Shown in pieces: positions 6,924-43,620 of a DNA stretch of 64,000 nucleotides. This DNA is from a phage. Below the pieces are notes generated by a model, which was not told where the DNA came from, did no database searches, and worked only from the letters and a program-made list of their open reading frames with translations. How positions within the stretch are numbered: position 1 is the first letter of the stretch; the number at the start of each line of letters is the position of its first letter. The DNA lies in the sequence record PX418922.1; one strand, 5' to 3'. The translations under genes and the position numbers were made by a program.

Positions 6924-6944
6924 TCACTATTTGGAGTTAAGATC

Positions 6945-7142: not shown

Positions 7143-7148
7143 AAAGTA

Positions 7149-7203: not shown

Positions 7204-7227
7204 GCCTAACAGAAGAGAGAAATCATC

Positions 7228-7500: not shown

Positions 7501-7503
7501 GGC

Positions 7504-7559
7504 TTGACATTAACGAATAATTTGTTAATATGTTACATAAAGCGGGAATAGTTCCCGCT
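7504..7559 (+). promoter_or_regulatory. early promoter unit 3 with 5' hairpin
   Basis: TTGACA-N16-TAATAT; hairpin AGCGGGAA-TAG-TTCCCGCT 7541-7559. Confidence 0.55.
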
Positions 7560-7576
7560 ATTTGTAAGGTGGTAGA

Positions 7577-7834: not shown

Positions 7835-7835
7835 T

Positions 7836-8393
7836 ATGGGCCGCGAATATGTGATCCAGTCTTGGGTAAAACATGAAGCAGATGATCCGCGCATCATTCC
7901 CGATCATCTTATCGATGAATCCACGGGATATAGCGGTGAGCAAATAGGTAACAGATTAGCACGTAGTAACGGCAACGTAAAAGCGCGTTATGTGCGCCCT
8001 GGCTGGCTGGCAAATGGTAACGCTGATTTATCCAGTGCGGAAGATGCGAGCGACGGCGCGAAAGATAATCCTTTGTACAAAATTGATCCGGCTTTTCGTG
8101 TCCTGGATGAATACCCCAGCAAGATAGCGGCGCTCGATCAGGCCCTGGAAAGTAAGCGCATCACCTGGACCGCTTACAACATGGCAAAAAACGTACTTGA
8201 TGGTAAATTGATTCAAGCTGAAAGAAAATTAGCCAAAATTGCAGCCATAACCCAGGAGGAAGACGAGGAGACAACGGAAGAGGAAGAGTACGAAGAGATC
8301 CCGCCGTTGTTGTGTGTTGATGCTTTCCCTGATTATCAGCCGACAGAGGAAGAAAAAAGGATCGCACTAGAAAACTTTGAAAATAGTCTTTGA
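7836..8393 (+). CDS. hypothetical protein with acidic C-terminal region (185 aa)
   Basis: RBS AAAGGTGG before ATG 7836; acidic tract EEDEETTEEEEYEE. Confidence 0.55.
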   Translation: MGREYVIQSWVKHEADDPRIIPDHLIDESTGYSGEQIGNRLARSNGNVKARYVRPGWLANGNADLSSAEDASDGAKDNPLYKIDPAFRVLDEYPSKIAALDQALESKRITWTAYNMAKNVLDGKLIQAERKLAKIAAITQEEDEETTEEEEYEEIPPLLCVDAFPDYQPTEEEKRIALENFENSL

Positions 8394-8446
8394 CATATCG
8401 CCGCCACTGGCATAATATTTACCACGTAGGGCGGCAATGGTGCCGC
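8390..8446 (+). promoter_or_regulatory. early promoter unit 4 with 5' hairpin
   Basis: TTGACA-N17-TAATAT; TTACCACGTAGGG; hairpin GCGGCA-ATGG-TGCCGC 8431-8446. Confidence 0.6.
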
Positions 8447-8475
8447 TCATAGTGAAATTATGCAAGAGGTTTGCA

Positions 8476-8571
8476 ATGATTAATAAAGAAAATAGCTTGA
8501 CGGTTGGAACGATTAACGCTATCATTCTTGCCGTTCCATTTTGGATTGTATTAGCGGCTATTATTTTCTAA
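8476..8571 (+). CDS. small membrane peptide (31 aa)
   Basis: RBS AAGAGG; hydrophobic INAIILAVPFWIVLAAIIF; sits between unit 4 and unit 5. Confidence 0.4.
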   Translation: MINKENSLTVGTINAIILAVPFWIVLAAIIF

Positions 8572-8580
8572 AAAATATTC

Positions 8581-8641
8581 TTGACAACGTTTTTTAATCT
8601 GATAAGATGTATCACATAGGGCGGCGGAATACTTCCCCGCC
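8581..8641 (+). promoter_or_regulatory. early promoter unit 5 with 5' hairpin
   Basis: TTGACA-N16-TAAGAT; GTATCACATAGGG; hairpin GGCGGCGGAA-TACT-TCCCCGCC 8619-8641. Confidence 0.6.
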
Positions 8642-8662
8642 AAAACAAAAAAGGGTAACACA

Positions 8663-9025
8663 ATGAGCAAGCAAATCAATACTATCATGTTTAATCTGGT
8701 ATCTTTCCGCGATGATATGAAAAATTTACCACGTGAAACGGTTGATATTCATGTTTCAGCTTATCGCGCCCTTATTGATATGTTACCGCTAAAACGTGAT
8801 CAACATGCCGCTAATATGATGCTTAATGCTATGCTTAAAAAGATGATTCAAACGGATCTCACCCTGGCGTATGAGTATCAAGGGCGCTTATATGCAACTT
8901 ACAACAAGGCGGTACCTGGTCTGGGAAGTACCGAAGAGTTGCACGGCTTAAACCTGGATCAAAACACTTGGGATAGTATGCGCCGCGTTATGGTATGGGC
9001 CGAAAGCGGTAAAATTTACGAATAA
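8663..9025 (+). CDS. hypothetical early protein (120 aa)
   Basis: RBS AAAAGGG before ATG. Confidence 0.55.
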   Translation: MSKQINTIMFNLVSFRDDMKNLPRETVDIHVSAYRALIDMLPLKRDQHAANMMLNAMLKKMIQTDLTLAYEYQGRLYATYNKAVPGLGSTEELHGLNLDQNTWDSMRRVMVWAESGKIYE

Positions 9026-9031
9026 AAACGG

Positions 9032-9091
9032 TTGACATTGTTTAAAATTCTAGTATAGTTTACCACATAGGGCGGGAAGTGGTTTCCCGCC
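9032..9091 (+). promoter_or_regulatory. early promoter unit 6 with 5' hairpin
   Basis: TTGACA-N16-TATAGT; TTACCACATAGGG; hairpin GGCGGGAA-GTGGT-TTCCCGCC 9071-9091. Confidence 0.6.
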
Positions 9092-9113
9092 AACAATGAA
9101 AAAGGTTATCATC

Positions 9114-9479
9114 ATGGCTATTAATATTAATGTTTCCGCTTATGCTACCCTGGCTAACACGGCTAAAATTGAATTATCCAGCATTGAGGCGGTGCATATT
9201 AGCGCCCGTCGCTGGTTTCAACGGTCCTACGGTAACACATATTTTTCTTTAATGGTTGACGTTGAGATCGGCGGTAAACTGATCGAGGTGGTTAACGTTC
9301 CGTTTCAATATGGCTATGGTGATCATTTTGATACCGTCGCCCTAGAAGAGTTTAGCAAGGTTATCAACCTGGAAGGTAAAGAGTTTTCAAATTATGCCTA
9401 CCTTTCCCGTTTTTGCCGTGACAATGGGATCACTGTATACAGTCATGCGAGCGATGTAAAACGTAAAAAAGATTTATAA
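9114..9479 (+). CDS. hypothetical early protein (121 aa)
   Basis: ATG 9114 preceded by conserved AAAAAGGT..ATC context; alternative in-frame ATG at 9096. Confidence 0.5.
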   Translation: MAININVSAYATLANTAKIELSSIEAVHISARRWFQRSYGNTYFSLMVDVEIGGKLIEVVNVPFQYGYGDHFDTVALEEFSKVINLEGKEFSNYAYLSRFCRDNGITVYSHASDVKRKKDL

Positions 9480-9485
9480 AAAGCA

Positions 9486-9545
9486 TTGACAGCACGAATA
9501 AAAAGAGTAAACTGTATTACATAGAGAGCGGGAACACTTCCCGCC
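9486..9545 (+). promoter_or_regulatory. early promoter unit 7 with 5' hairpin
   Basis: TTGACA-N16-TAAACT; GTATTACATAGAG; hairpin GCGGGAA-CAC-TTCCCGC 9528-9544. Confidence 0.6.
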
Positions 9546-9568
9546 TCACTGAAAAAGAGAGAAAAATC

Positions 9569-9808
9569 ATGGCTAAATCTAAAATGTACAACGGTCACAA
9601 AAACAAAACTCATTGGAATGTAAGCCTTTGGATTAATAACGATGAATCGTTATACCGGTTGGCCCAAGATTTTATTAACGCTAATGCTAATCGTAATGAT
9701 GCGGCGCGGGATATGATGCTTTTTCTGGAACAAACTGGACAAGATAAAACGCCAGACGGTTTCAAATATAGCACTACTGCGATCCGTGCCGCGATGGTTG
9801 GAATGTAA
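9569..9808 (+). CDS. hypothetical early protein (79 aa)
   Basis: RBS AAGAGAGAAAAATC-ATG. Confidence 0.55.
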   Translation: MAKSKMYNGHKNKTHWNVSLWINNDESLYRLAQDFINANANRNDAARDMMLFLEQTGQDKTPDGFKYSTTAIRAAMVGM

Positions 9809-9817
9809 TAAAAACAG

Positions 9818-9877
9818 TTGACAACGTTTAAAATTAGTGTAAGATGTATCACATAGGGCGGGAAGTGGTTTCCCGCC
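9818..9877 (+). promoter_or_regulatory. early promoter unit 8 with 5' hairpin
   Basis: TTGACA-N16-TAAGAT; GTATCACATAGGG; hairpin GGCGGGAA-GTGGT-TTCCCGCC 9857-9877 (identical to unit 6). Confidence 0.6.
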
Positions 9878-9898
9878 AAAACAAAGAGATTAAAGATT

Positions 9899-10126
9899 AT
9901 GGCTATCAATATTGTTCGCGTATCCGGCACCGTTGGCACTTCCCAGGTTATTGCAGTTGTAACAAACAAAAAGATTAATGATGTATGTGAGATCTTGAAT
10001 AAGTGGGCTATTGCTAATTTTGGGGAATATGCAAGCGTCGAGTACATCGAATCCTACCAGGTGCCAACCATCAGCCTAACCGATCTCAACGTTGATCGCC
10101 TGTTATGCCTGGATGAATTGATCTGA
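9899..10126 (+). CDS. hypothetical early protein (75 aa)
   Basis: RBS AAAGAGA..ATT-ATG after unit 8. Confidence 0.55.
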   Translation: MAINIVRVSGTVGTSQVIAVVTNKKINDVCEILNKWAIANFGEYASVEYIESYQVPTISLTDLNVDRLLCLDELI

Positions 10127-10135
10127 AAAAGATTG

Positions 10136-10191
10136 TTGACACCGGAAAGAAAAAGAGTAAACTGTATTACGTAGGGCGGCAATGGTGCCGC
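10136..10191 (+). promoter_or_regulatory. early promoter unit 9 with 5' hairpin
   Basis: TTGACA-N16-TAAACT; GTATTACGTAGGG; hairpin GCGGCA-ATGG-TGCCGC 10176-10191. Confidence 0.6.
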
Positions 10192-10216
10192 TCACAACAA
10201 AAGAGAGATTATTACG

Positions 10217-10429
10217 ATGGCTAATATCCGCACACTGTTAAAAAATGCAAGTCAAGTTTTATTTTCAGATGACGAGTATTTCAATAAAGACATTACAGGC
10301 GTGAAGAATATCAAAGATGTAAAAAGTGTTATGGGTATATATTGCAATGTTAAACGTGTTGGAACGTTCGGTGATAAAGTATTGTACCAATCAGGTGATT
10401 ACAATTTTACTTTGACGATTATTTCATAA
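10217..10429 (+). CDS. hypothetical early protein (70 aa)
   Basis: RBS AAGAGAGA before ATG. Confidence 0.55.
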   Translation: MANIRTLLKNASQVLFSDDEYFNKDITGVKNIKDVKSVMGIYCNVKRVGTFGDKVLYQSGDYNFTLTIIS

Positions 10430-10434
10430 AACGC

Positions 10435-10496
10435 TTGCAATACTGCAAAAATAAAGTAAACTGTATTACATCAAGGCGGCGGAATGGTCCACCGCC
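10435..10496 (+). promoter_or_regulatory. early promoter unit 10 with 5' hairpin
   Basis: TTGCAA-N16-TAAACT; GTATTACATCAAGG; hairpin GGCGGCGGA-ATGG-TCCACCGCC 10475-10496. Confidence 0.55.
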
Positions 10497-10520
10497 TAAC
10501 AAAGAGAAGAGGAAAATATC

Positions 10521-10688
10521 ATGATCACTTTCGCTACCCGTGAAGCCGCTCGCAACGTTGCACGTAAAGTTAACGCCGCCAACCTGGGCGCTACTTTTAA
10601 AGCGCCTGTAAAAGATGAATCAGGAAAATGGATCTTCCCTGGTCTGCGTCACGCTGATAAGCTAGGCACTTTAAGCCTTAAAAAATAA
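10521..10688 (+). CDS. small basic protein (55 aa)
   Basis: RBS AGAGGAAAATATC-ATG; first 16 nt of coding sequence identical to the next ORF (ATGATCACTTTCGCTA). Confidence 0.45.
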   Translation: MITFATREAARNVARKVNAANLGATFKAPVKDESGKWIFPGLRHADKLGTLSLKK

Positions 10689-10691
10689 TCG

Positions 10692-10729
10692 TTGACTTTT
10701 CGTTATAGCGCCCATTATAAGGCGCTATA
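10692..10729 (+). promoter_or_regulatory. early promoter unit 11 (variant hairpin)
   Basis: TTGACT-N17-TTATAA; 9-bp inverted repeat TATAGCGCC..GGCGCTATA 10705-10729 overlaps the -10 region. Confidence 0.45.
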
Positions 10730-10762
10730 GAGAAGAGAAACCACTACTAACAAGGAAACATC

Positions 10763-10984
10763 ATGATCACTTTCGCTATTGTCGCCGTTGTCGCTGGTCA
10801 GGTTTACGTAAACGATACATTCACCACAGAAGACAAGGCCGCAGGAGACATAACCGCCGTTTACAATGAGTGCAAGGCAGTAGAAAGGATGTTAGCGCCT
10901 TGTATGTTAATGAGTGAACGCCAGGACGGGATAACAGTGTTTACTAACATTGAAACAGGGTACCAAATGGTAGTAACAAAATAA
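10763..10984 (+). CDS. hypothetical early protein (73 aa)
   Basis: RBS-like AAGGAAA; N-terminus MITFA shared with previous small ORF. Confidence 0.5.
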   Translation: MITFAIVAVVAGQVYVNDTFTTEDKAAGDITAVYNECKAVERMLAPCMLMSERQDGITVFTNIETGYQMVVTK

Positions 10985-10987
10985 AGC

Positions 10988-11044
10988 TTGACACGGATTT
11001 AATTTTCAGTAAACTGTTACACGTAGGGCGGGAATAGTTCCCGC
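10988..11044 (+). promoter_or_regulatory. early promoter unit 12 with 5' hairpin
   Basis: TTGACA-N16-TAAACT; GTTACACGTAGGG; hairpin GGCGGGAA-TAG-TTCCCGC 11027-11044. Confidence 0.6.
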
Positions 11045-11062
11045 TAAAAAGAGAGAAAGACC

Positions 11063-11416
11063 ATGAAAGCACAAAATGCAATTAAAGAGTACATCCTTGC
11101 CGCTATCGATTTTAATGATTACGGTATTACAACCGAAAAAGAGAAGATCGCGGAATTGATGCGCCGTTTTAATTCCGAGTACTGGTACCCTGATAATCAA
11201 TCACGTTTTAATTATAGTATTGTTAAAGCACTTGCATCATGGTTACAAGGCTTGCCATCAGATATTAATATAGCTTTCGAATATTGGGAAATTGATCGTT
11301 TGTTAACATCCTGGGGATACATTAAAGAGAATAGCAGCGATGATAAAATCCAACGAGAAAGGGAAAATTATTGGCTTTATATTGCAGGCGTGATCCTTGC
11401 TTGCTCTTATGAATGA
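11063..11416 (+). CDS. hypothetical early protein (117 aa)
   Basis: RBS AAGAGAGAAAGACC-ATG. Confidence 0.55.
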   Translation: MKAQNAIKEYILAAIDFNDYGITTEKEKIAELMRRFNSEYWYPDNQSRFNYSIVKALASWLQGLPSDINIAFEYWEIDRLLTSWGYIKENSSDDKIQRERENYWLYIAGVILACSYE

Positions 11417-11422
11417 TAAACC

Positions 11423-11476
11423 TTGACAATTTTACAAAACAGTTTAAATTAATAATATAGCGGCAATGGTGCCGCT
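11423..11476 (+). promoter_or_regulatory. early promoter unit 13 with 5' hairpin (spacing atypical)
   Basis: TTGACA then TAAATT or TAATAT; hairpin GCGGCA-ATGG-TGCCGC 11460-11475 lies closer to -10 than in other units. Confidence 0.4.
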
Positions 11477-11495
11477 CATATAAAGAGGAAACAAA

Positions 11496-11642
11496 ATGAA
11501 TACATCTAATCGCGCAGAAAAAATTCAATCTTCCAAGATCCGCAAGGCCTGGAATGAGGAAGTGATCCGCAAAGGCGACAAGCGCAATAAAACAAAGCGC
11601 GGGAAGAGTGACAAATATAATTGGATGGATTTAGAGGATTAA
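11496..11642 (+). CDS. small basic protein (48 aa)
   Basis: RBS AAGAGGAAACAAA-ATG; Lys/Arg-rich; followed by terminator. Confidence 0.45.
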   Translation: MNTSNRAEKIQSSKIRKAWNEEVIRKGDKRNKTKRGKSDKYNWMDLED

Positions 11643-11650
11643 CATAACAA

Positions 11651-11676
11651 GGGCGCACCAAGCGCCCTTTCTTTTT
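11651..11676 (+). terminator. rho-independent terminator
   Basis: GGGCGCACCAAGCGCCC hairpin followed by TTTCTTTTT. Confidence 0.65.
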
Positions 11677-11697
11677 ACATGTAGAGGATAAACAAAA

Positions 11698-11883
11698 ATG
11701 ACTTTAAACGAGCTTAAAACAGCCTATAACGCAACATTAAAAATAGCCGTGCGTTACCGTGACGAATACGGTTTTATTGCGCAGGGCGTGATCCTGGGCT
11801 TTTCTGACGATGGTTTGATCTATGTTGATGCACATCACAACAAGGTTAAACCGGAAAACGTTATCAGTATAAAATATCTTTAA
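11698..11883 (+). CDS. hypothetical protein (61 aa)
   Basis: RBS GAGGATAAACAAAA-ATG. Confidence 0.5.
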   Translation: MTLNELKTAYNATLKIAVRYRDEYGFIAQGVILGFSDDGLIYVDAHHNKVKPENVISIKYL

Positions 11884-11889
11884 AAGTGG

Positions 11890-11946
11890 TTGACACCATA
11901 ACCGGACCTGTTAAACTGTATTACATCAGGCGGGGAATAGTTCCCC
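11890..11946 (+). promoter_or_regulatory. early promoter unit 14 with 5' hairpin
   Basis: TTGACA-N16-TAAACT; GTATTACATCAGG; hairpin GGGGAA-TAG-TTCCCC 11929-11946. Confidence 0.55.
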
Positions 11947-11969
11947 AACCATACAAAAAGGTAAATATT

Positions 11970-12176
11970 ATGATCACCGCAAAACAAGAAAAAATCATTA
12001 TCGACGTTGCAGCCGTTGCCGCTATTGCTATTATTGGATCTTATTATGATACCCGTTTCCCGTCGGCTATGCATGAGATCGCCGCCGTTGCATCAGTTGG
12101 CGTGCTGTTTTACGTTGGTAAACGCTATTTATCACCAATGATTAACAAGCTGACACCGTGGAAAAATAAAGGTTGA
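11970..12176 (+). CDS. small membrane protein (68 aa)
   Basis: ATG 11970 preceded by AAAAAGGTAAATATT; hydrophobic IIIDVAAVAAIAIIGSYY. Confidence 0.5.
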   Translation: MITAKQEKIIIDVAAVAAIAIIGSYYDTRFPSAMHEIAAVASVGVLFYVGKRYLSPMINKLTPWKNKG

Positions 12177-12230
12177 TCCTGTTTTATATTGTGTTATAGT
12201 TATCGTGTAGGGCGGCAATGGTGCCGCGCC
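12173..12230 (+). promoter_or_regulatory. early promoter unit 15 with 5' hairpin
   Basis: TTGATC-N16-TATAGT; TATCGTGTAGGG; hairpin GCGGCA-ATGG-TGCCGC 12212-12227. Confidence 0.5.
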
Positions 12231-12247
12231 CCTTTGAGGATGCAATC

Positions 12248-12532
12248 ATGAGTAAAGCTAACACCGTGCTAATGTTTTCCCTGATTAATGATCCCGCTTA
12301 CTTGTCCAACATGACGCAGGAGGGTAACACATTAACGGCAACATTCACCAATAAGCTTGACCGAGTGATCATCATCTCACTGAAAACAGTTAGTAAAGGC
12401 TTTTACTCGTTAGCTTATCATTGGATCACTGATACCGATGAGACAAGCCAGGACTATAGCGCCCCTTTCCCTGAATCAATGGCACGGGAGATCATCGCCG
12501 CCGTTGTAAATGATGGTTTGTTTACTGCATAA
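12248..12532 (+). CDS. hypothetical early protein (94 aa)
   Basis: RBS GAGGATGCAATC-ATG. Confidence 0.5.
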   Translation: MSKANTVLMFSLINDPAYLSNMTQEGNTLTATFTNKLDRVIIISLKTVSKGFYSLAYHWITDTDETSQDYSAPFPESMAREIIAAVVNDGLFTA

Positions 12533-12549
12533 ATAATTTAGAAAAAGGC

Positions 12550-12606
12550 TTGCAATCATTTTGAGATAGTGTATATTTAATTCATAGGGCGGCGGGAATA
12601 GTTCCC
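12550..12606 (+). promoter_or_regulatory. early promoter unit 16 with 5' hairpin
   Basis: TTGCAA-N16-TATATT; TTCATAGGG; hairpin GGGAA-TAG-TTCCC 12587-12606. Confidence 0.5.
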
Positions 12607-12629
12607 AAAGCAAACGAGAGGATTACACG

Positions 12630-12749
12630 ATGAGCAAGTACACAGTAGAATACACGGTAGAGAATCCGGCAGTATCCGAAGGTAAAAAGATGACATTTGC
12701 CATCAGTATAATCGCTTTCGTTGTCACTATCTTATCAATCATCTTATAA
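12630..12749 (+). CDS. small membrane peptide (39 aa)
   Basis: RBS GAGAGGATTACACG-ATG; hydrophobic C-terminus AISIIAFVVTILSIIL. Confidence 0.4.
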   Translation: MSKYTVEYTVENPAVSEGKKMTFAISIIAFVVTILSIIL

Positions 12750-12759
12750 GGTACACACC

Positions 12760-12921
12760 ATGAAAATAACAGACATTATCAAAGAGATCGCCCTTGCCGC
12801 TGGCGTTGAAGTCGAGGAAGTGATCGCGCTCAATCTTACAGAAAACGATCTGCGCAACTATGAAGCGGAAAGCGTGAAAGCAAGCGGCGCGGTCCTGGTA
12901 TATGATCCGGCTAACAAGTAA
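12760..12921 (+). CDS. hypothetical small protein (53 aa)
   Basis: ATG 12760 with weak AAGG RBS. Confidence 0.4.
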   Translation: MKITDIIKEIALAAGVEVEEVIALNLTENDLRNYEAESVKASGAVLVYDPANK

Positions 12922-12930
12922 GGGGGTAAC

Positions 12931-13041
12931 ATGAATCCGAAAGATATGCAAGCATGGAAAGGGTACGACGATCTAAGCGCCTTGCGCAATAAGTCAAGCC
13001 GTAACTTTAGACGGTTGGAAGCAAAGAAAAAGAAAAAATAG
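12931..13041 (+). CDS. small basic peptide (36 aa)
   Basis: RBS AAGGGGG before ATG 12931; Lys-rich C-terminus. Confidence 0.35.
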   Translation: MNPKDMQAWKGYDDLSALRNKSSRNFRRLEAKKKKK

Positions 13042-13042
13042 T

Positions 13043-13098
13043 TTGACAAGTCCGCCTAGTCTGATAATATGTATCTTGTAGGGCGGCAATGGTGCCGC
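13043..13098 (+). promoter_or_regulatory. early promoter unit 17 with 5' hairpin
   Basis: TTGACA-N16-TAATAT; GTATCTTGTAGGG; hairpin GCGGCA-ATGG-TGCCGC 13083-13098. Confidence 0.6.
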
Positions 13099-13119
13099 TC
13101 ACAAGAAGAGAGAAAAATC

Positions 13120-13404
13120 ATGAAAATTACAAAAAGCCTAACTAATTATGCAGCACGTCGCGGATTATGTTTAACCGTTGAAAACTTAGGGAAAGAAGAC
13201 TTTTTGTGTTTTTGGGAGCTTGAGAATGATTGCGAGTGGATGTTTTCTTATTCTATCTGCGAAGATCAAAACGGTTGTTTGTTAACCTGGCGCGGTAATA
13301 TCTATTTACCGGAAGAAATTAAAGAAGAGTTACCAGGTACGATCATGACAGAGAGACAGCTTAAGGAAGTGATCAATTTTGTAGGGCAAAACATTAAAAA
13401 ATAA
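13120..13404 (+). CDS. hypothetical early protein (94 aa)
   Basis: RBS AGAAGAGAGAAAAATC-ATG. Confidence 0.55.
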   Translation: MKITKSLTNYAARRGLCLTVENLGKEDFLCFWELENDCEWMFSYSICEDQNGCLLTWRGNIYLPEEIKEELPGTIMTERQLKEVINFVGQNIKK

Positions 13405-13405
13405 T

Positions 13406-13466
13406 TTGACAGCAGGCAAACAACGTAGTAAAGTTTACCACATAGGGCGGCGGAATGGTCCACCGC
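13406..13466 (+). promoter_or_regulatory. early promoter unit 18 with 5' hairpin
   Basis: TTGACA-N17-TAAAGT; TTACCACATAGGG; hairpin GGCGGCGGA-ATGG-TCCACCGC 13446-13466. Confidence 0.55.
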
Positions 13467-13489
13467 TCACAACAGAAGAGAAACAAATC

Positions 13490-13660
13490 ATGATCCCGAC
13501 TATGTTTTATGTATCGCGCAAAGGTCACAATATTTTTTGGTCTGAAGATTTAAATGAAGCTATGACGTTTGCCCGTGATCGTGTTGCTATCGGTGGCGTT
13601 AACATCACCGTAACCGATGAAAATGGCATTGAATACTATAACGGCGACGATGAAGAATAA
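13490..13660 (+). CDS. hypothetical early protein (56 aa)
   Basis: RBS AGAAGAGAAACAAATC-ATG. Confidence 0.5.
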   Translation: MIPTMFYVSRKGHNIFWSEDLNEAMTFARDRVAIGGVNITVTDENGIEYYNGDDEE

Positions 13661-13667
13661 TTAATGA

Positions 13668-13688
13668 GGCGGGGGAGTATTCCCCGCC
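13668..13688 (+). promoter_or_regulatory. 5' UTR hairpin without a clear -35/-10
   Basis: GGCGGGGGA-GTAT-TCCCCGCC stem-loop 20 nt before RBS of 13708 gene; promoter hexamers not convincing. Confidence 0.35.
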
Positions 13689-13707
13689 GTCAATAAAGAG
13701 GTAAATC

Positions 13708-13977
13708 ATGAAAATATCATTAGACGTTGCAATCAAGGCCATCGAATCCGGTTACACCCTGGTAAAAGATGATAAGGCTAAAACCGTGCACCACGTTAAC
13801 AAAGAAACAGGCGAAAGCATGATCACATATAAAGCCGCCTACTTTCTCCAATCAGTAGCAGATCCGCGCGTACAACGCCAGGTTACAGCGGCTATTGCTA
13901 AAAAATTATGTGCTTTACAGGGCACAAGTTTTAACGAGATCGCCCCGTGTTTTGACTGGTCGAGCTTGAAAAAATAG
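13708..13977 (+). CDS. hypothetical early protein (89 aa)
   Basis: RBS AAAGAGGTAAATC-ATG. Confidence 0.55.
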   Translation: MKISLDVAIKAIESGYTLVKDDKAKTVHHVNKETGESMITYKAAYFLQSVADPRVQRQVTAAIAKKLCALQGTSFNEIAPCFDWSSLKK

Positions 13978-13978
13978 T

Positions 13979-14040
13979 TTGACAACAATTATAAATCGGG
14001 TAGAATGTATTTCGTAGGGCGGGGCAATGGTGCAACGCCT
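13979..14040 (+). promoter_or_regulatory. early promoter unit 20 (degenerate hairpin)
   Basis: TTGACA-N16-TAGAAT; GTATTTCGTAGGG; weaker stem GGCG...CGCC 14018-14040. Confidence 0.5.
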
Positions 14041-14058
14041 ACTAATGAGGGTAAAATC

Positions 14059-14163
14059 ATGTTAGAGAAAATTTTCACGGTTGTAGTAGTGGGCCTGGTG
14101 TTATCGGTTGGAGTGGTTGCAACTATGGCTAACATGATCCTATCTTCCCACGGTATTGGATAA
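14059..14163 (+). CDS. small membrane peptide (34 aa)
   Basis: RBS GAGGGTAAAATC-ATG; hydrophobic FTVVVVGLVLSVGVVATMANMIL. Confidence 0.4.
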   Translation: MLEKIFTVVVVGLVLSVGVVATMANMILSSHGIG

Positions 14164-14173
14164 GGTGAATCAA

Positions 14174-14389
14174 ATGATCACGAATAAGACAGGTAAAACA
14201 GAATTTTTACGCGCCTTGCAGATCGGCAAGCCTGAGATCTGGCATTGCACTAAATCCGCGCATAATGAAATGAAAGATTTTACCGCTACTTTACAACGTG
14301 TTAAAATATCTATCACACAGAAAAAAGCCTTGTTAGTAGTAGAAAACGAGATCCCGCAAACTATTATTATTGTCGAGCGTACAGCATGA
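14174..14389 (+). CDS. hypothetical protein (71 aa)
   Basis: RBS AAGGTG before ATG 14174; alternative TTG start at 14156. Confidence 0.5.
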   Translation: MITNKTGKTEFLRALQIGKPEIWHCTKSAHNEMKDFTATLQRVKISITQKKALLVVENEIPQTIIIVERTA

Positions 14390-14772
14390 AAACAGAAATC
14401 ATTATTGAAATCATCAACGGTTATAAAGAAGCCTTTATTTTTGCTGAATCAGCAAGGGATCATGAAGGTAATTTTATTGATAACTTAGACGATTATGATT
14501 TTTCTCCTAGCGTGGATCAACGGATCGCCCAGGATGTAACAGCCTTTATTAATGCTAATCTTGCCGCTATCTCTGAGGCAATGAGCGACGGCGCAACAGC
14601 CAACCAGATCGGGAATGATTTACATTTTACCCGTAACGGTCACGGCGTAGGCTTTTGGGATCGCCCTGAAATATACACCACTAACACGGCGAACCGCCTA
14701 ACCAATGCAGCTAAGTTTATGCCGAACGTGTCGGCTTACATTGGTGAAGATAATTTGATTTATATTGAATAA
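14386..14772 (+). CDS. hypothetical protein (128 aa)
   Basis: ATGA overlap with upstream ORF. Confidence 0.55.
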   Translation: MKTEIIIEIINGYKEAFIFAESARDHEGNFIDNLDDYDFSPSVDQRIAQDVTAFINANLAAISEAMSDGATANQIGNDLHFTRNGHGVGFWDRPEIYTTNTANRLTNAAKFMPNVSAYIGEDNLIYIE

Positions 14773-14778
14773 AAAGTA

Positions 14779-14837
14779 TTGACACCGATCCCCAATATGG
14801 TACTATTTACCACGTAGGCGGGAAATGGTTTCCCGCC
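14779..14837 (+). promoter_or_regulatory. early promoter unit 21 with 5' hairpin
   Basis: TTGACA-N16-TACTAT; TTACCACGTAGG; hairpin GGCGGGAAA-TGG-TTTCCCGCC 14817-14837. Confidence 0.6.
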
Positions 14838-14860
14838 AGGTAATCAAAAAGGTAAATACT

Positions 14861-15250
14861 ATGCGCAACCTGGTTTCTGTTTCTAACGTTGAAAAATTTC
14901 AATCTTTACAGGGTATCGTTAACAACGTAGCGCCTTTTTTAGTCAACGGCTTGATTGCAAAGATGAAAAATAAACATCATGCGGCATGGTCTGCTTACTG
15001 CTTTGATAATGATGAAAAAGCGGCTGAAATGATGTTAAATATGCTGTTAGACAGTGTAGAATCATCTTTACCGGAAAACATCGCAGAAGAGATCACCTAT
15101 CGTTATAATATGGCGATCACTTACCAGGAGGTTGCGCAATTTAATATGATGGACGATGACGAACAACAGGATCAGGAAATGTTTTGGGAGTATGCTGATC
15201 GTCAATCGGCTTTTGATGAAAAATTAGCGATGTATTATAACGAATATTAA
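14861..15250 (+). CDS. hypothetical early protein (129 aa)
   Basis: ATG 14861 preceded by AAAAAGGTAAATACT. Confidence 0.55.
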   Translation: MRNLVSVSNVEKFQSLQGIVNNVAPFLVNGLIAKMKNKHHAAWSAYCFDNDEKAAEMMLNMLLDSVESSLPENIAEEITYRYNMAITYQEVAQFNMMDDDEQQDQEMFWEYADRQSAFDEKLAMYYNEY

Positions 15251-15266
15251 TACACGGTAAAAGAAA

Positions 15267-15290
15267 GGGGCGCACTAAGCGCCCTTTTTT
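15267..15290 (+). terminator. rho-independent terminator
   Basis: GGGGCGCACTAAGCGCCC hairpin followed by TTTTTT. Confidence 0.7.
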
Positions 15291-15635
15291 GTATTCTTTT
15301 TTCACGATGGAAACAACACGTAAAGAATAGGCGTAAAGGTGGCGTAAAACCATCTAAAACCGACTGTAACCGCTTAAACAAGGTAGGAATGATTAATCAC
15401 CTTGCCAGGATGAAAAAGCCGTTATAAAGCTATCTAGAGCGTTTAAAGCACATAGGAAATAATTTGCTTTTTATCTTGCCTTTTACCCTGCTTTTGATTA
15501 TTATTATGGAACGGGCGGCACCTGGAGACAGGGGAAGATAATCACCGGAAGATCCCGCTATATATTGATAGCTAATACCTATTAAACAACAAAACATCAA
15601 AGGAATAAACTATCAAATCTTTACAATTCTACCTA

Positions 15636-15670
15636 TTGACACCGGATCGCCCTTATACTAAGATGTATCA
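15636..15670 (+). promoter_or_regulatory. early promoter unit 22 (no GC hairpin)
   Basis: TTGACA-N17-TAAGAT; GTATCACGTAGGG conserved start region but downstream hairpin absent. Confidence 0.5.
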
Positions 15671-15710
15671 CGTAGGGCAAATGATTTTAAACGGTAAACG
15701 AGGAATCACC

Positions 15711-16139: not shown

Positions 16140-17150
16140 CGAACAATGTTGATAGATTCCGCCTATGGAAAACCGACACAGAACAAAACTGAATAAATAG
16201 CGGTATCAAGCTAATCAACCATTAAATGAATAACCATACCTCCCAGGGTAACAGGCTGTTAGAGAGCCATTTAAAGCGGTTAAAATCGATCAACAACCAA
16301 CAACAAACCATCAAAAACACCCTTTTACCTCCTTTCTAGTGCAATGATAACCATTATCATCTATCCATGTTTATCTATACAATATAAGTGCATAATTATA
16401 ATGTTGATAATAGTTCGCAACAACTAACCAACAAACAACATAAAACAATAAGCAAACTAATCATAATCAAAGGAATAATAGCAAGATGATTGATAACAAC
16501 AAACAATCAAACCATGATGAATACTAAGCAAGATAACGATAACACGACAAAACAACCAACTAACGAACAATAACAAACGAAACCATTAAAATAATAACTA
16601 TTGCCATAATAGTGACTAAATGAAATCATTACAAAACGAATCATTCACAGAGTCATCATTAGCACGCTATGCCGGACACATAGCGAGCTAATAATAAGCC
16701 AACTACACCCCAACAATCATAACCATCGGTGATGGTTATTTCTTGTTACTGCGTAGCTTGCAATAATTGCAAGCGTAATGACGCTTACACTTATTGCGCT
16801 GGCTTATTATTAGCATTATATGTAATTACCAAGATCATAACATTAGCGCAATAACAATAATCATTGTGGTAATTACGTAAGGAAACAATTAGCATGGCAA
16901 TAATTATGGGGCAATGGGAGGATGATTATCATCATTCCGATACATTGCACACTATGCACATAATAGAATAAAAAGCAATAATTTTGGGGGCGAAATGTTA
17001 CCGCCACAGGCGGGAATGTTGAGCACTAAGAAAAGAGATAAACCTTAATCATGGGGGCGTAAATATCCGCAGGATTGCCAACGGCGATCCGGTAGGATGT
17101 TGAGCATCTTCTCTTAAACGTAAATAAAATCAGAAAATTCTTGATTTATT
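16140..17150. other. A+C-rich, G-poor non-coding tract with palindromes (candidate origin, regulatory region or ncRNA)
   Basis: About 1 kb without credible ORF; runs of CAACAA/AACAAA; palindromes CTTGCAATAATTGCAAG (~16757), GATGATTATCATC (~16920), AGCGT-AATG-ACGCT (~16774). Confidence 0.45.
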
Positions 17151-17174
17151 TTAGTTTTTATGTTAATAAACGTT

Positions 17175-17379
17175 TAAATAATAATCATTCTCATATAAAT
17201 AATAGTCTGCTTGTCATGAGCGGGATTAGTTGACAATGTTCCGTCATATGATGAAGTTGCCAACCTATTGATAAATAAGTGTTTGTGTGATTTATAATCA
17301 AGTGGCCCACCTTGTCGCTACGTTGGCATAAGCCTTGCATAAGTCATTGAATACGAATGATAATTATTCTCATTCGCAT
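17175..17379. promoter_or_regulatory. second cluster of Fur-box-like / TTCTCAT palindromic sites
   Basis: TAAATAATAATCATTCTCAT (17175-17194) is 19/20 identical to 6211-6230; AATGATAATTATTCTCATTCGCAT (17356-17379) matches 6155-6172. Confidence 0.45.
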
Positions 17380-17493
17380 GATATTTGGGAATTGTCGCTG
17401 CGTGGACCTGACGGCCCGAAAATTCGCGTTAAGCACTTCTTACGTATGCGCCATGATTTTTGCCATATGATATTGATTCTATTAGATATTCTT

Positions 17494-17678
17494 GCCATGA
17501 TTGCCATGAAACAGGGTGTCCCGAAATAATCTTTCCCCGTAGATATTTTGGGTTACTTTTTATACAAGAGTGGGGTGTCAAAAATAATCGGTATATATGG
17601 GATAATTGATAGGAATCCCCTATGATAATTCGATTGTAATTCCCTGAGATTGATCGTATGATGTTGGTGATTGATGAT
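17494..17678. repeat. direct repeats ATGATTGCCATGAAA (two copies ~170 bp apart) and GGTGTC..AAATAATC
   Basis: Copies at ~17494-17508 and ~17664-17678; GGTGTCCCGAAATAATC (~17515) vs GGTGTCAAAAATAATC (~17573). Confidence 0.35.
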
Positions 17679-17715
17679 TGCCATGAAAGATGGCTAACGA
17701 TGAGAGGAGATTATC

Positions 17716-26752: not shown

Positions 26753-26965
26753 ATGAAGGTACATTACCCTCATCCATTTGATCCTAAAAACAAAGCCGTA
26801 ATTCTTCGTCAGTGGCAACGGGTTTGTCGTACTAAATGTCCAATCAATAGCCCACACAATGTAGACAAGGACTATCTTGGGACATTTGTTGAATACACTT
26901 ACATAGACAAAAACAAGCGTAAACAGCATGTCGAGGAATACTGCTTAAGAGTAGAATGGCTGTAA
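26753..26965 (+). CDS. hypothetical protein (70 aa)
   Basis: RBS GGGGG; ATG overlaps upstream stop. Confidence 0.5.
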   Translation: MKVHYPHPFDPKNKAVILRQWQRVCRTKCPINSPHNVDKDYLGTFVEYTYIDKNKRKQHVEEYCLRVEWL

Positions 26966-26977
26966 ATAATAAATACC

Positions 26978-27006
26978 TTGACAAGTGTTTATTCGTTTTG
27001 TAAAGT
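26978..27006 (+). promoter_or_regulatory. sigma70-like promoter for recombinase gene
   Basis: TTGACA 26978-26983, 17-nt spacer, TAAAGT 27001-27006. Confidence 0.5.
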
Positions 27007-27035
27007 GAGAATACAGCAATGGTTTAGGAGTGGTT

Positions 27036-27707
27036 ATGAAAAAGTTTGTTGTTTACAGTCGTCTTTCTAAACAGAAAAAAGGTGAGGCACAATATGGTAT
27101 GGAGAGCCAAGAGAATGATATCCGTTACTTCTTAGACTCTGTGCCTGATGCGGAAGTTATTGGTCAATTTTCTGAATACTATTCGGGTAAGGGCGATTGG
27201 AAGCAACGTAAGGAACTGGTTAAAGCGGTTGAAATGTGTAAAGCTACCGGAGCAACTTTATTGGTAGCTAAAGTTGACCGCTTGGGTCGTAACAACGCCT
27301 CCGTAGCAACTCTTCTAGAAATGATCGATGTTAAGATAGCCATTATGCCAGACGCAGATAAAATGGTTATACAGCTTCTGTCTGTTCTGGCTGAACAAGA
27401 AGTTAGAGGTATTGCTGATCGTATTAAAAAGGGTCTTGCTGTAGCAAAAAGCAAAGGTGTTTTATTAGGCAGTGCTAATCCTAAAACTGCCGCTGCACGT
27501 AGAAAAGGAAAAATGGAATACAACTCTGTTAAAGCAGACGCTTTTGCAGAGACATTCCGTGAACGCTTGGAGATCCTTAGAGATTTAAATACACCTTACA
27601 AAACTATTGCTGAAAAATTCAATAGTAAGAAAATAGCAACAGCACGTGGTGGTAAATGGGATGCTAAAACTGTTTCTCGTTTGTGTGCCAGACTGAACAT
27701 TAAATAG
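27036..27707 (+). CDS. serine recombinase (resolvase/invertase family)
   Basis: N-terminal VYSRLSKQ (catalytic Ser context), LLVAKVDRLGRN motif, C-terminal basic HTH-like region; RBS AGGAG. Confidence 0.65.
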   Translation: MKKFVVYSRLSKQKKGEAQYGMESQENDIRYFLDSVPDAEVIGQFSEYYSGKGDWKQRKELVKAVEMCKATGATLLVAKVDRLGRNNASVATLLEMIDVKIAIMPDADKMVIQLLSVLAEQEVRGIADRIKKGLAVAKSKGVLLGSANPKTAAARRKGKMEYNSVKADAFAETFRERLEILRDLNTPYKTIAEKFNSKKIATARGGKWDAKTVSRLCARLNIK

Positions 27708-42939: not shown

Positions 42940-43134
42940 TCATTCTACCAAAGAGAATTCCGCCTCTTCCAGGTAGATTACAGACCTTGTTGCATGATAT
43001 TTAACGCTCCAGAAATTACCTTCGCGCCGTAAAAGTATCTCATTCACATCAAGATTGCTTAGAAAAACCATATAACTTAAAGCTTGTTGACGCGTTGAGA
43101 ATTGTTTCTCTAAAAGTTCTTCTCCGCTCTGCAT
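42940..43134 (-). CDS. hypothetical protein (64 aa)
   Basis: Minus-strand ORF. Confidence 0.45.
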   Translation of the reverse strand: MQSGEELLEKQFSTRQQALSYMVFLSNLDVNEILLRREGNFWSVKYHATRSVIYLEEAEFSLVE

Positions 43135-43180
43135 AATCCCTCCTTAAAGATACTCCCTCCGAAAAGGGAGTATAAGTATA

Positions 43181-43384
43181 TCACGTAGTTGTTATGTTGT
43201 CTTCTTGGATACTAGAATCCACTTCTGCAAACATATCTTCTGCACTGTAATTATTTCCAGTCCAGCGTGATAAAAGGATAGCACCAATCTCTTTTGCATG
43301 AGATTCGGACTCCGCATAAACGTTAGTCCCAGTGTCACCTTTTTTCTTTTCATGTGCATAAATGCAGTAATAATTGTAAGCCAT
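43181..43384 (-). CDS. hypothetical protein (67 aa)
   Basis: Minus-strand ORF. Confidence 0.45.
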   Translation of the reverse strand: MAYNYYCIYAHEKKKGDTGTNVYAESESHAKEIGAILLSRWTGNNYSAEDMFAEVDSSIQEDNITTT

Positions 43385-43620
43385 TAATCTTCCCAGTCAT
43401 TGCCCTCGGTAGAGTGAACTAAAGCTCGCACGATACCACCGTAATCTACTGCCTGATTTGCAGCATGTTCGGCATAAACTTCAATGGCTTTTTTGAAGAA
43501 AAGAGCAGTAGCTGCTTCAATATTATCCATTTCGCCATCTACGTCAGTAGAAAGTGAAAGGTTGAGGCTTTCATCTACTTCATCAAAATCAATAGCCACT
43601 GTCATAATTAGTTTACCCAT
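43384..43620 (-). CDS. hypothetical acidic protein (78 aa)
   Basis: Minus-strand ORF; overlaps downstream start by 1 nt. Confidence 0.5.
   Translation of the reverse strand: MGKLIMTVAIDFDEVDESLNLSLSTDVDGEMDNIEAATALFFKKAIEVYAEHAANQAVDYGGIVRALVHSTEGNDWED

What the first reader, a model, noticed from the sequence alone, without database searches (positions are those of the whole stretch)
26978..27707. Serine recombinase with its own sigma70 promoter inside the early/accessory block
The 224-aa protein has the resolvase/invertase catalytic N-terminus (VYSRLS, VDRLGRN) and a basic C-terminal HTH-like region, and a good TTGACA-N17-TAAAGT promoter. Virulent T4-type phages do not normally need a site-specific recombinase. 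It could run an inversion switch, resolve replication multimers, or be a remnant of a mobile element. The direct repeats bounding the 6.2-17.3 kb block are candidate substrates, which is speculative.
Basis: partly seen in the sequence, partly recalled or inferred. Interest (0 to 1): 0.55.

Follow-up and report, generated by a model that had tools for sequence, protein, structure and literature searches.

The report
Orphan serine recombinase of phAPEC8-type phage
The gene is a real, intact and conserved site-specific DNA recombinase of a virulent phAPEC8-like E. coli phage, already annotated in public records; the DNA it acts on is still unknown, and I found no sign that it flips a segment or integrates the phage.

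Summary
Window 27036-27707 (+) encodes a 223-aa serine recombinase with all catalytic residues. A TTGACA-N17-TAAAGT promoter lies at 26978-27006.

The window is not T4-type. It is a Phapecoctavirus (phAPEC8-like, Stephanstirmvirinae). The protein is 100% identical in about 60 GenBank phage records, where it is already called putative site-specific recombinase, resolvase or DNA invertase.

It is a core gene under purifying selection, with orthologues in phi92-like, Klebsiella, Shewanella and Vibrio phages. Its C-terminal domain resembles the helical part of the "recombinase domain" of large serine integrases. It meets none of the defining features of Gin/Hin invertases, Tn3 resolvases or large integrases.

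- **Inversion switch:** not supported. About 63 genomes are collinear across roughly 125 kb of the 148-kb genome, and there are no flanking inverted repeats.
- **Integration:** not supported. There is no match in 5,426 complete E. coli genomes.
- **"Direct repeats" at 6.2 and 17.3 kb:** these are Fur-box-like palindromes, two of them inside the 328-bp terminal repeat. They are poor crossover candidates.
- **Relocation:** the gene has moved from an ancestral slot, which is empty at 43135-43180.

Relatives carry one dyad site just upstream of the gene. The window has a weak equivalent at 26968-26993.

The most likely role is recombination between copies of a single phage site, as with res or lox. 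This is inferred, not shown.

The parts
26978..27006 (+). Sigma-70-type promoter: -35 TTGACA (26978-26983), 17-nt spacer, -10 TAAAGT (27001-27006).
   Evidence: Sequence. The scan scores it 10 of 12. An equivalent TTGACA/TTGACT-N17-18 element lies about 55-60 nt before the ATG in the phiWec179, phi92 and FBKp34 orthologues.
26968..26993 (.). Candidate recombinase binding or crossover site (inferred, weak). It is a 12-2-12 dyad, AATAAATACCTT-GA-CAAGTGTTTATT, with 9 of 12 symmetric positions, and it overlaps the -35 hexamer.
   Evidence: Found. It is unique in the roughly 148-kb pseudo-genome. Relatives carry a single dyad site just upstream of the gene. Against: only 5 of 137 TTGACA sites reach this score, so it is suggestive rather than compelling, and the right arm is not conserved in phiWec179.
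27026..27030 (+). Ribosome-binding site AGGAG, 5 nt before the ATG.
   Evidence: Sequence.
27036..27707 (+). Serine recombinase gene, 223 aa; the nucleophile is S11 (codon 27066-27068). It is the same protein as phAPEC8_0049.
   Evidence: It is 100% identical in about 60 phage records and is annotated 'putative site-specific recombinase' in JX561091.
27036..27452 (+). Catalytic alpha/beta domain (aa 1 to about 105) plus the long helix E (aa 109-139).
   Evidence: AlphaFold2 model with mean pLDDT 89. The top Foldseek matches are Sin, Bxb1 and gamma-delta resolvase.
27480..27692 (+). Four-helix C-terminal DNA-binding domain (aa 149-219), related to the helical first part of the 'recombinase domain' of large serine integrases.
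   Evidence: Weak PF07508 match at aa 187-216. The family profile aligns aa 111-216 with SPbeta integrase residues 135-244, E = 1.6e-3. Helices are in the model.
43135..43180 (-). Empty ancestral slot of the recombinase gene: a 46-bp hairpin-containing spacer between the gp54-like gene (43181-43384) and the gp52-like gene (42940-43134).
   Evidence: In phi92 and FBKp34 the recombinase lies exactly between the homologues of these two small genes. Sequence.

Best explanation
**Shown.** The gene encodes a catalytically competent small serine recombinase. It has a resolvase-type catalytic domain, a long helix E, and a roughly 75-aa helical DNA-binding domain of the large-serine-integrase 'recombinase domain' type, with no zinc ribbon or coiled coil. 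It is a vertically inherited core gene of virulent Stephanstirmvirinae. It lies 9.6 kb from the left physical end of the genome, behind a host-type promoter, so it is probably made early.

**Inferred.** It most likely acts like a res/lox-type enzyme. It would bind one cognate dyad-symmetric site per genome, possibly the dyad over its own -35 box, which would also give autoregulation. It would then recombine two copies of that site whenever two are present, in dimers, concatemers or co-infecting genomes. That would interconvert monomeric circles and multimers of replicating phage DNA.

It does not appear to run an inversion switch or an integration reaction.
For: **Identity and integrity.**
- Family and structure matches.
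- Catalytic residues are invariant in the family.
- Purifying selection: dN/dS is about 0.18-0.20 against phiWec179 and FBKp34, and there are 3 synonymous and 0 non-synonymous differences against phAPEC8.

**Distribution.**
- The protein is at least 99% identical in 63 phage records, with orthologues in phi92-like, Klebsiella, Citrobacter, Shewanella and Vibrio phages.
- The exact protein occurs in 884 blocks of public assemblies. In the 10 places shown, the immediately flanking genes (DUF7202 upstream, a 136/140-aa ORF downstream) are the same.

**Ancestral neighbourhood.** In phi92, FBKp34 and Shewanella phage 1/4 the gene lies in a DNA-metabolism block with methyltransferase, DprA-like protein, ligase and phosphatase genes.

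**Single-site design in relatives.**
- In 33 of 80 alphaproteobacterial loci, one conserved dyad (CACAACs-NN-sGTTGAC with covarying outer arms) lies 66-79 nt before the ATG in 31 of the 33 (37-39 nt in the other two). No second copy lies within 5 kb.
- A separate tyrosine integrase is present in 35 of those 80 loci, so the serine enzyme is not the integrase there.
- Dyads scoring 9 of 12 or better lie upstream of the gene in 31% of 85 viral loci, against 6.6% of control windows.

**Window equivalent.** The dyad at 26968-26993 is unique in the genome.

**Rivals excluded.** No inversion polymorphism and no prophage or plasmid copy in 5,426 E. coli genomes.
Against: No substrate has been demonstrated.
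- The window's dyad is only in the top 4% or so of TTGACA sites.
- Its right arm is not conserved in the 74%-identical phiWec179 orthologue, whose DNA-binding helices are nearly the same.
- The ACG-NN-CGT core common in relatives is absent from the phage genome beyond chance.
- In many relatives the gene sits tightly inside operons, with almost no upstream gap.
- A phage that packages from concatemers with short terminal repeats has no obvious need to make monomers.
- No rV5-type (Vequintavirinae) phage appeared among the listed matches, which suggests related phages with similar biology manage without this gene. I did not check this exhaustively.
Confidence: 0.35

Rival explanations
1. It acts in trans on DNA other than the phage's own. 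For example, it might rearrange or break host elements such as defence islands, satellites or cryptic prophages, or the genomes of competing phages, as an early takeover or counter-defence function.
For: It has an early host-type promoter and lies among small early accessory genes. No convincing second site was found in the phage genome. In ICP1 a homologue lies in a stretch of genes that are not among the numbered ICP1 reference genes, which suggests a variable region. Published work shows recombinases being exploited in phage-host conflicts: ICP1 Adi turns a satellite's integrase into a nuclease at attP (PMC9638900).
Against: The orthologues infect very different hosts (Escherichia, Klebsiella, Vibrio, Shewanella), so a conserved host target is hard to imagine. 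No target has been identified. Relatives keep a cognate site next to the gene.
Confidence: 0.2
2. It is a selfish or drifting gene cassette with little benefit to the phage. On this view it is a mobile recombinase gene that moves between and within phage genomes and mainly regulates itself.
For: The gene has left its ancestral slot, now empty at 43135-43180, and sits 16 kb away on the other strand. Its neighbours differ between genera. Distribution is patchy in ICP1 and across many unrelated viral contigs.
Against: It is present in every Phapecoctavirus and phi92-like genome seen, always at a fixed place within each genus. It is under purifying selection with all catalytic residues kept. Only one relocation is inferred. 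The spacer left behind resembles the phi92 5' leader (ATACTT ... AGGAGGGaTTATG). That suggests ordinary illegitimate recombination at translation signals rather than self-transposition.
Confidence: 0.15
3. It is a DNA invertase that runs an on/off or host-range switch, like Gin of Mu or Cin of P1.
For: PHROG 125 and several GenBank records call it 'DNA invertase'.
Against: - There are no inverted repeats of useful quality near the gene or in the 64-kb window; the perfect ones are terminator hairpins.
- All tail-fibre genes lie on one strand, with no alternative inverted fibre ends.
- About 63 genomes are collinear with consistent strand over window 25-50 kb and phAPEC8 49.5-124.5 kb.
- Identity to Gin is only 23%.
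- There is no HTH_7 domain.
- The NCBIfam Mpi invertase model scores 22.6 bits against a cutoff of 272.
Confidence: 0.06
4. It is an integrase for lysogeny, pseudolysogeny or a plasmid-prophage state.
For: Small serine recombinases can integrate phages; phiRSM of Ralstonia is an example (from my own knowledge). PHROG 95 'integrase' also matches, E = 7.6e-22.
Against: A 3-kb region around the gene has no match in 5,426 complete E. coli genomes and their plasmids. All records are lytic phage isolates, and papers describe them as strictly lytic (PMC5374246; PMC10282059). The protein lacks the zinc-ribbon and coiled-coil domains of serine integrases.
Confidence: 0.03

Closest known systems
Small serine resolvases with one site next to the gene (Tn3/gamma-delta TnpR-res, Sin, beta, RK2 ParA-res)
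   Same: It shares the catalytic domain fold and residues and a long helix E. The size is about 200 aa. In relatives there is a single dyad site directly upstream of the gene that overlaps a TTGACA box, as expected for autoregulation.
   Different: The C-terminal domain is not the HTH_7 type. No three-subsite res array fits in the 70-bp gap, and there is no transposase or plasmid context. Sequence matches are weak, about 1e-6.
Large serine recombinases / phage serine integrases (Bxb1, SPbeta SprA, phiC31, TP901-1)
   Same: Helix E plus the first helical part of the 'recombinase domain' align. The N-terminal motif has the longer S-x9-13-Q spacing typical of this group.
   Different: It has 223 aa rather than 450-600. 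It lacks the beta-rich part of the recombinase domain, the zinc ribbon and the coiled coil. No attP/attB pair or prophage form exists.
DNA invertases Gin, Cin, Hin and Pin
   Same: It belongs to the same superfamily, and the candidate site has the 12-2-12 layout with a central GA, as in gix (the gix layout is from my own knowledge).
   Different: Identity to Gin is 23%. There is no invertible segment, no inverted site pair and no orientation polymorphism.
Cre/loxP of phage P1 (functional analogy only)
   Same: It is a phage-encoded recombinase acting on one site per genome to cyclise or monomerise phage DNA. This is the kind of role I propose, and it is inferred.
   Different: Cre is a tyrosine recombinase and P1 is temperate. 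The terminal repeat here is only 328 bp, and it holds no recognisable even-centred site.

Membership tests
Serine recombinase superfamily (Pfam PF00239 Resolvase) | Match to the family model above the curated cutoff. | tested here: met
   66 bits against a cutoff of 23.3, E = 5.2e-18, aa 5-142.
Serine recombinase superfamily (Pfam PF00239 Resolvase) | Nucleophilic serine and the conserved Arg/Asp residues (gamma-delta R8, S10, R45, D67, R68, R71). | tested here: met
   R9, S11, R58, D81, R82 and R85 align with them and are invariant in 42 family members.
Serine recombinase superfamily (Pfam PF00239 Resolvase) | Alpha/beta catalytic fold followed by the long helix E. | tested here: met
   AlphaFold2 model with pLDDT 89. 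Foldseek matches to Sin, gamma-delta, Bxb1 and TP901-1 catalytic domains have E values down to 9e-7.
Serine recombinase superfamily (Pfam PF00239 Resolvase) | Actual DNA cleavage and strand exchange. | not testable with these tools
   This needs an in vitro or in vivo recombination assay.
Gin/Hin/Cin/Pin DNA invertases | Invertible segment bounded by inverted 26-bp sites next to the gene. | tested here: not met
   There are no such repeats. About 63 genomes are collinear.
Gin/Hin/Cin/Pin DNA invertases | Close sequence relationship and a Hin-type C-terminal HTH (HTH_7). | tested here: not met
   Identity to Gin is 23%. No HTH_7 hit was found. The Mpi invertase model scores 22.6 bits against a cutoff of 272.
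Gin/Hin/Cin/Pin DNA invertases | Fis-dependent enhancer. | not tested
   I did not look for one, because there is no invertible segment for it to serve.
Tn3-family resolvases | A res site with three subsites (about 115 bp) upstream of the gene, and a linked transposase. | tested here: not met
   The upstream gap is 70 bp and holds one dyad at most. No transposase is nearby.
Large serine recombinases (integrases) | Full recombinase domain, zinc ribbon and coiled coil; more than 400 aa. | tested here: not met
   The protein has 223 aa. Only a 30-aa weak PF07508 match was found, 18.2 bits against a cutoff of 21.1. The model shows four helices and nothing more.
Large serine recombinases (integrases) | An integrated (prophage) form with attL and attR. 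| tested here: not met
   There is no match in 5,426 complete E. coli genomes.
IS607-type serine transposases | N-terminal MerR-like HTH followed by a C-terminal catalytic domain. | tested here: not met
   The domain order is the reverse: catalytic domain first, DNA-binding domain last.
Named NCBIfam equivalogs (YneB, XisF, Mpi, CcrB) | Score above the curated cutoff. | tested here: not met
   All four are far below cutoff: 32.5 against 175, 27.4 against 375, 22.6 against 272, and 17.5 against 900.

The most novel reading that the evidence does not exclude
A virulent myovirus with short (328-bp) terminal repeats uses an early-expressed 'mini' serine recombinase and a single cognate site to cyclise, monomerise or fuse its replicating genomes. 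This would be a Cre/loxP-like step carried out by a serine enzyme in a strictly lytic phage. It would be shared by a whole clade of 130-150-kb phages of Escherichia, Klebsiella, Vibrio and Shewanella.
Probability: 0.12. Interest if true: 0.6.

Novelty: already known. Interest (0 to 1): 0.33.

Why it matters
- **Safety screening.** Recombinase genes are used as red flags when phages are screened for therapy. This one sits in a widely isolated group of therapeutic candidate coliphages, and its annotations conflict: resolvase, invertase, hypothetical protein, even 'methionine ABC transporter ATP-binding protein'. The evidence here is reassuring on safety, because the phage never appears as a prophage and shows no inversion system.
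- **Biology.** A site-specific recombinase kept as a core gene by strictly lytic phages has no established function. Finding its substrate would reveal either a new step in the DNA metabolism of these phages or a new kind of host takeover.
- **Possible tool.** The compact architecture, a catalytic domain plus a truncated integrase-type DNA-binding domain, could be useful for DNA engineering if the cognate site is defined. The clearest place to start is the conserved dyad found upstream of the alphaproteobacterial relatives.

Tried and rejected
1. **Local invertible segment.** Repeat searches over the whole window and over +/-5 kb gave only low-identity chance pairs, terminator hairpins and similar ribosome-binding regions.
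2. **Inversion polymorphism among relatives.** Five 25-kb megablast searches were run. Window 1-25 kb is a mosaic of cassettes, but strands are consistent. The other four chunks are collinear in about 63 genomes. phAPEC8 124.5-136.9 kb was fetched but not searched.
They are Fur-box-like 7-1-7 palindromes, conserved in the terminal repeat of phi92-like phage BME3. They are odd-centred, so they fit a serine recombinase poorly.
4. **Conserved partner gene.** No neighbouring gene family is shared across 80 viral or 80 bacterial loci, apart from a tyrosine integrase in 35 bacterial islands.
5. **Second copy of the candidate site, or sites with the relatives' ACG-NN-CGT core.** A 148-kb pseudo-genome built from the window plus phAPEC8 showed nothing above chance.
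6. **Genome-wide dyad census.** Counts equal shuffled expectation, apart from terminators.
7. **Cassette shuffling by the recombinase.** Indels between the window and phage tuntematon fall within repeated modules of roughly 70-100 bp (promoter, stem-loop and the ribosome-binding region after it), as expected for homologous recombination. This neither supports nor excludes a role for the recombinase.
8. **Literature.** No paper in the library tests this gene. One calls it a resolvase for concatemers without data (PMC10282059). One states that no recombinase is present in two phages that do carry it (PMC5374246; compare).
9. **Empty version of the new site.** The upstream DUF7202 gene turned out to be shared with roughly 170-kb, probably T4-like, phages rather than with phi92-like ones, so no empty site was found.

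Full report
**What the window is.** A 3-kb stretch around the finding matches 66 phage records, 63 of them at 95-99% identity over at least 80% of its length. These are Escherichia phage phAPEC8 and its relatives: genus Phapecoctavirus, subfamily Stephanstirmvirinae, virulent myoviruses of about 150 kb. The phage is therefore not T4-type. phAPEC8's own annotation notes similarity to rV5, PVP-SE1 and FelixO1 for many genes.

**The observation.**
- The ORF is 27036-27707 (+), 223 aa, with AGGAG 5 nt before the ATG.
- It matches Pfam Resolvase at 66 bits (cutoff 23.3), PHROG 125 at 2.6e-32, and Tn3/gamma-delta resolvase structures at about 1e-6.
- Aligned with gamma-delta resolvase and Gin, the nucleophile and its partners are all present (Y7, R9, S11, R58, D81, R82, R85). 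They are invariant in a 42-member family alignment.
- An AlphaFold2 model (pLDDT 89) shows the catalytic alpha/beta domain, a long helix E (109-139) and a four-helix C-terminal domain (149-219).
- Foldseek returns Sin, Bxb1, gamma-delta and TP901-1.
- The C-terminal domain is not the Hin/resolvase HTH_7. It gives a weak PF07508 match, and the family profile aligns residues 111-216 with SPbeta integrase 135-244.
- The protein is therefore a compact enzyme. It is a resolvase-size protein whose DNA-binding domain resembles the first, helical part of the large-serine-integrase recombinase domain.

**The promoter.** TTGACA-N17-TAAAGT lies at 26978-27006. As a bare consensus match it is no better than chance, because the 15-kb scan found 47 sites against 42 +/- 6 in shuffles. 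However, it lies in a rare 70-bp gap, and an equivalent element lies at the same distance before the ATG in phiWec179, phi92 and FBKp34, whose flanks are otherwise different. No terminator precedes it, and the next gene follows after 9 nt. It is an internal promoter of a long early operon.

**Already known.** The identical protein is phAPEC8_0049, annotated in 2012 as 'putative site-specific recombinase'. Other records call it resolvase, serine recombinase or DNA invertase, and several mislabel it 'methionine ABC transporter ATP-binding protein'. No paper in the library tests it. One asserts, without data, a concatemer-resolving role (PMC10282059). Another says its two phages have no recombinase although both carry this gene (PMC5374246).

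**Conservation.**
- The protein is at least 99% identical in 63 records.
- It is 74% identical in phiWec179-type phages, 57% in phi92 and other Justusliebigvirus, and 52% in Klebsiella phage FBKp34.
- It is 35-38% identical in 130-150-kb Vibrio and Shewanella phages, and 30% in some ICP1 isolates.
- The exact sequence is found in 884 blocks of public assemblies. In the 10 places shown it has the same immediately flanking genes.
- dN/dS is about 0.18-0.20 against phiWec179 and FBKp34, and the only differences from phAPEC8 are 3 synonymous changes.
- It is a functional core gene, not a decaying remnant.

**Tests of the proposed roles.**
- *Inversion.* No useful inverted repeats occur near the gene or anywhere in the window. 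All tail-fibre and tailspike genes of phAPEC8 lie on one strand. Window 25-50 kb and phAPEC8 49.5-74.5, 74.5-99.5 and 99.5-124.5 kb are each matched as one collinear place in about 56-63 genomes. In the records listed, the strand always agrees with that of the recombinase gene. Differences are gene replacements such as tailspike swaps, not inversions. An active Gin/Cin-type switch would be expected to appear in both orientations among 60 independent assemblies.
- *Integration.* A 3-kb region around the gene finds nothing in 5,426 complete E. coli genomes with their plasmids.
Five of them lie in two ORF-poor regions, 5.7-6.9 kb and 16.1-17.7 kb. They are odd-centred, whereas serine recombinases cut around a 2-bp centre.

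**Genome ends.** The record of phage Mt1B1_P17 has identical 328-bp ends that map to window 17103-17430. The phi92-like phage BME3 was reported to have a 342-bp terminal repeat (PMC12210895). That repeat is homologous to the same region and starts with a perfect Fur-type box. The window therefore spans the concatemer junction. The recombinase gene lies 9.6 kb from the left physical end, in the first block to enter the cell.

**The gene has moved.**
- In phi92 the recombinase lies between two small genes, gp54 and gp52. These sit inside a block: lysozyme, PhoH, HslV, methyltransferase, [gp55, gp54, recombinase, gp52], HisRS-like, phosphatase, DprA-like.
- The same block is in the window on the minus strand (47130 to 39874). 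There the gp54 homologue (43181-43384, 69% identical) and the gp52 homologue (42940-43134) are adjacent, separated by a 46-bp hairpin spacer.
- FBKp34 has gp54-like, terminator, promoter, recombinase, gp52-like in a comparable PhoH, phosphatase, methyltransferase block.
- Shewanella phage 1/4 has the gene between an HslV-like gene and a DprA-like gene, with a DNA ligase gene in between.
- The ancestral place is therefore the DNA-metabolism block, and the Phapecoctavirus lineage relocated the gene to the left-end early block.
- The spacer left behind resembles the phi92 leader (ATACTT ... AGGAGGGaTTATG). That hints at ordinary recombination at translation signals rather than self-transposition. 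The evidence for this is thin.

**What relatives say about the mechanism.**
- No neighbouring gene is conserved across 80 viral or 80 bacterial loci.
- In viral contigs the gene often sits among ERF, methylase, phosphoesterase and DprA-like genes.
- In bacteria the closest relatives (35-41% identity) are mostly in Alphaproteobacteria. In 35 of 80 loci a tyrosine integrase lies 2-6 genes away, so the serine enzyme is not the integrase of those loci.
- In 33 of these 80 loci a conserved dyad, GTTGCAAt-CACAACs-NN-sGTTGACa-TTTGCAAC, occurs exactly once within +/-5 kb. In 31 of the 33 it lies 66-79 nt before the ATG, and in the other two 37-39 nt.
- The inner core around a central dinucleotide is conserved. 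The outer arms change together in some loci (for example TGTAACG...CGTTACA). This is what a serine-recombinase site bound by a dimer should look like. The site also contains a TTGACA box, which suggests autoregulation.
- Among 85 viral loci, 12-2-12 dyads with at least 9 of 12 symmetric positions lie in the 130 nt before the gene in 31%, against 6.6% of control windows. For at least 10 of 12 the figures are 13% against 1.2%. Many share an ACG-NN-CGT core.
- One cognate site next to the gene is the design of resolution systems (res, lox), and also of integrases. Since integration is excluded here, a resolution or fusion reaction between copies of one site is the best-supported inference.

**The candidate site in the window.**
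- At 26968-26993, AATAAATACCTT-GA-CAAGTGTTTATT is a 12-2-12 dyad (9 of 12) centred on the -35 box. It is unique in a 148-kb pseudo-genome built from the window and phAPEC8.
- It is weak evidence. Five of 137 TTGACA sites reach the same score.
- The right arm is not conserved in phiWec179, although the DNA-binding helices are nearly identical.
- No dyads with the relatives' core exceed chance in the phage genome.
- I therefore list it as a candidate only.

**Verdict.** The feature is real, ordinary in kind and already annotated. Its biological role is open. What this analysis adds:
- the correct taxonomic placement;
- exclusion of the inversion and integration readings as far as comparative data allow;
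- re-interpretation of the 'bounding repeats' as Fur-like boxes in and near the terminal repeat;
- the empty ancestral slot;
- a conserved dyad site in relatives that suggests how the family works.

The proposed mechanism has about one chance in three of being right. Interest is modest.

Noticed in passing
window 6157-6229, 16345-16359, 17179-17193, 17358-17372: Fur-box-like 7-1-7 palindromes (TGATAATnATTcTCA) give 7 matches against 0.79 expected by chance. Five cluster in two ORF-poor regions. The same boxes are conserved in the phi92-like phage BME3, whose terminal repeat begins with a perfect one. They might reflect iron-dependent control, use of Fur as a host factor, or a packaging signal. 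I found nothing on this in one literature search.
   Followed up: partly
window 17103-17430: This is the 328-bp direct terminal repeat, so the physical genome ends lie here. The two ends of record NC_052662 (Mt1B1_P17) are identical and map to this interval. It is homologous to the reported 342-bp repeat of BME3. The window therefore spans the end-to-end junction.
   Followed up: partly
window 17492-17509, 17678-17686: Three copies of TTGCCATGA lie within 200 bp to the right of the terminal repeat (4 in the window against 0.78 expected). Nearby there are also repeated GGGTGTC...AATAATC motifs. They look like iterons and could belong to an origin or a packaging signal.
   Followed up: no
window 6890-15680: This is an array of about 15 modules. 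Each has a TTGACA-N17-TAnnnT promoter followed at the transcript start by a GC-rich stem-loop (GGGCGG...CCGCC), and each precedes a small ORF. The region is highly mosaic between genomes; no record covers 80% of window 1-25 kb. Indels relative to phage tuntematon fall at these modules. This resembles the promoter-stem-loop cassette shuffling described for T4-type phages (from my own knowledge).
   Followed up: partly
window 42940-43620 (- strand): Three small genes are homologous to phi92 gp55, gp54 and gp52. A terminator-like hairpin (ATACTCCCTTTTCGGAGGGAGTAT, about 43150-43175) lies where phi92 and FBKp34 carry the recombinase.
   Followed up: yes
window 26753-26965: The gene just upstream of the recombinase is a DUF7202 protein. 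Its closest relatives in viral contigs (67-81% identical) lie in genomes of roughly 155-170 kb, probably T4-like, not in phi92-like phages. It looks like a small early gene exchanged between unrelated myoviruses.
   Followed up: no
GenBank records listed: Several records annotate this recombinase as 'methionine ABC transporter ATP-binding protein' (for example OR352956, MW175890, MT496970). Some records of this coliphage type carry unlikely host labels (Campylobacter phage B15, Acinetobacter phage ABPW7, Pseudomonas phage PsgM04F).
   Followed up: no
record PV691511.1 (Escherichia phage WPEC2): This 159-kb record matches the queries in 15 and 7 separate places, where other genomes give 1 to 6 or 1 to 2. 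It is either rearranged or misassembled.
   Followed up: no
L090-L169 (bacterial loci), about 66-79 nt before the recombinase start: A conserved dyad of about 34 bp, GTTGCAAt-CACAACs-NN-sGTTGACa-TTTGCAAC, has covarying outer arms. It is present once per locus in 33 of 80 alphaproteobacterial loci that also tend to carry a tyrosine integrase. It is probably the cognate site of that branch of the family.
   Followed up: partly
L006 (ICP1 isolate 2017_DRC_48), 3501-4256: A 30%-identical homologue lies in a stretch of ICP1 genes that carry no 'previously called GP' label, unlike the genes on either side, which suggests a variable region.
   Followed up: no
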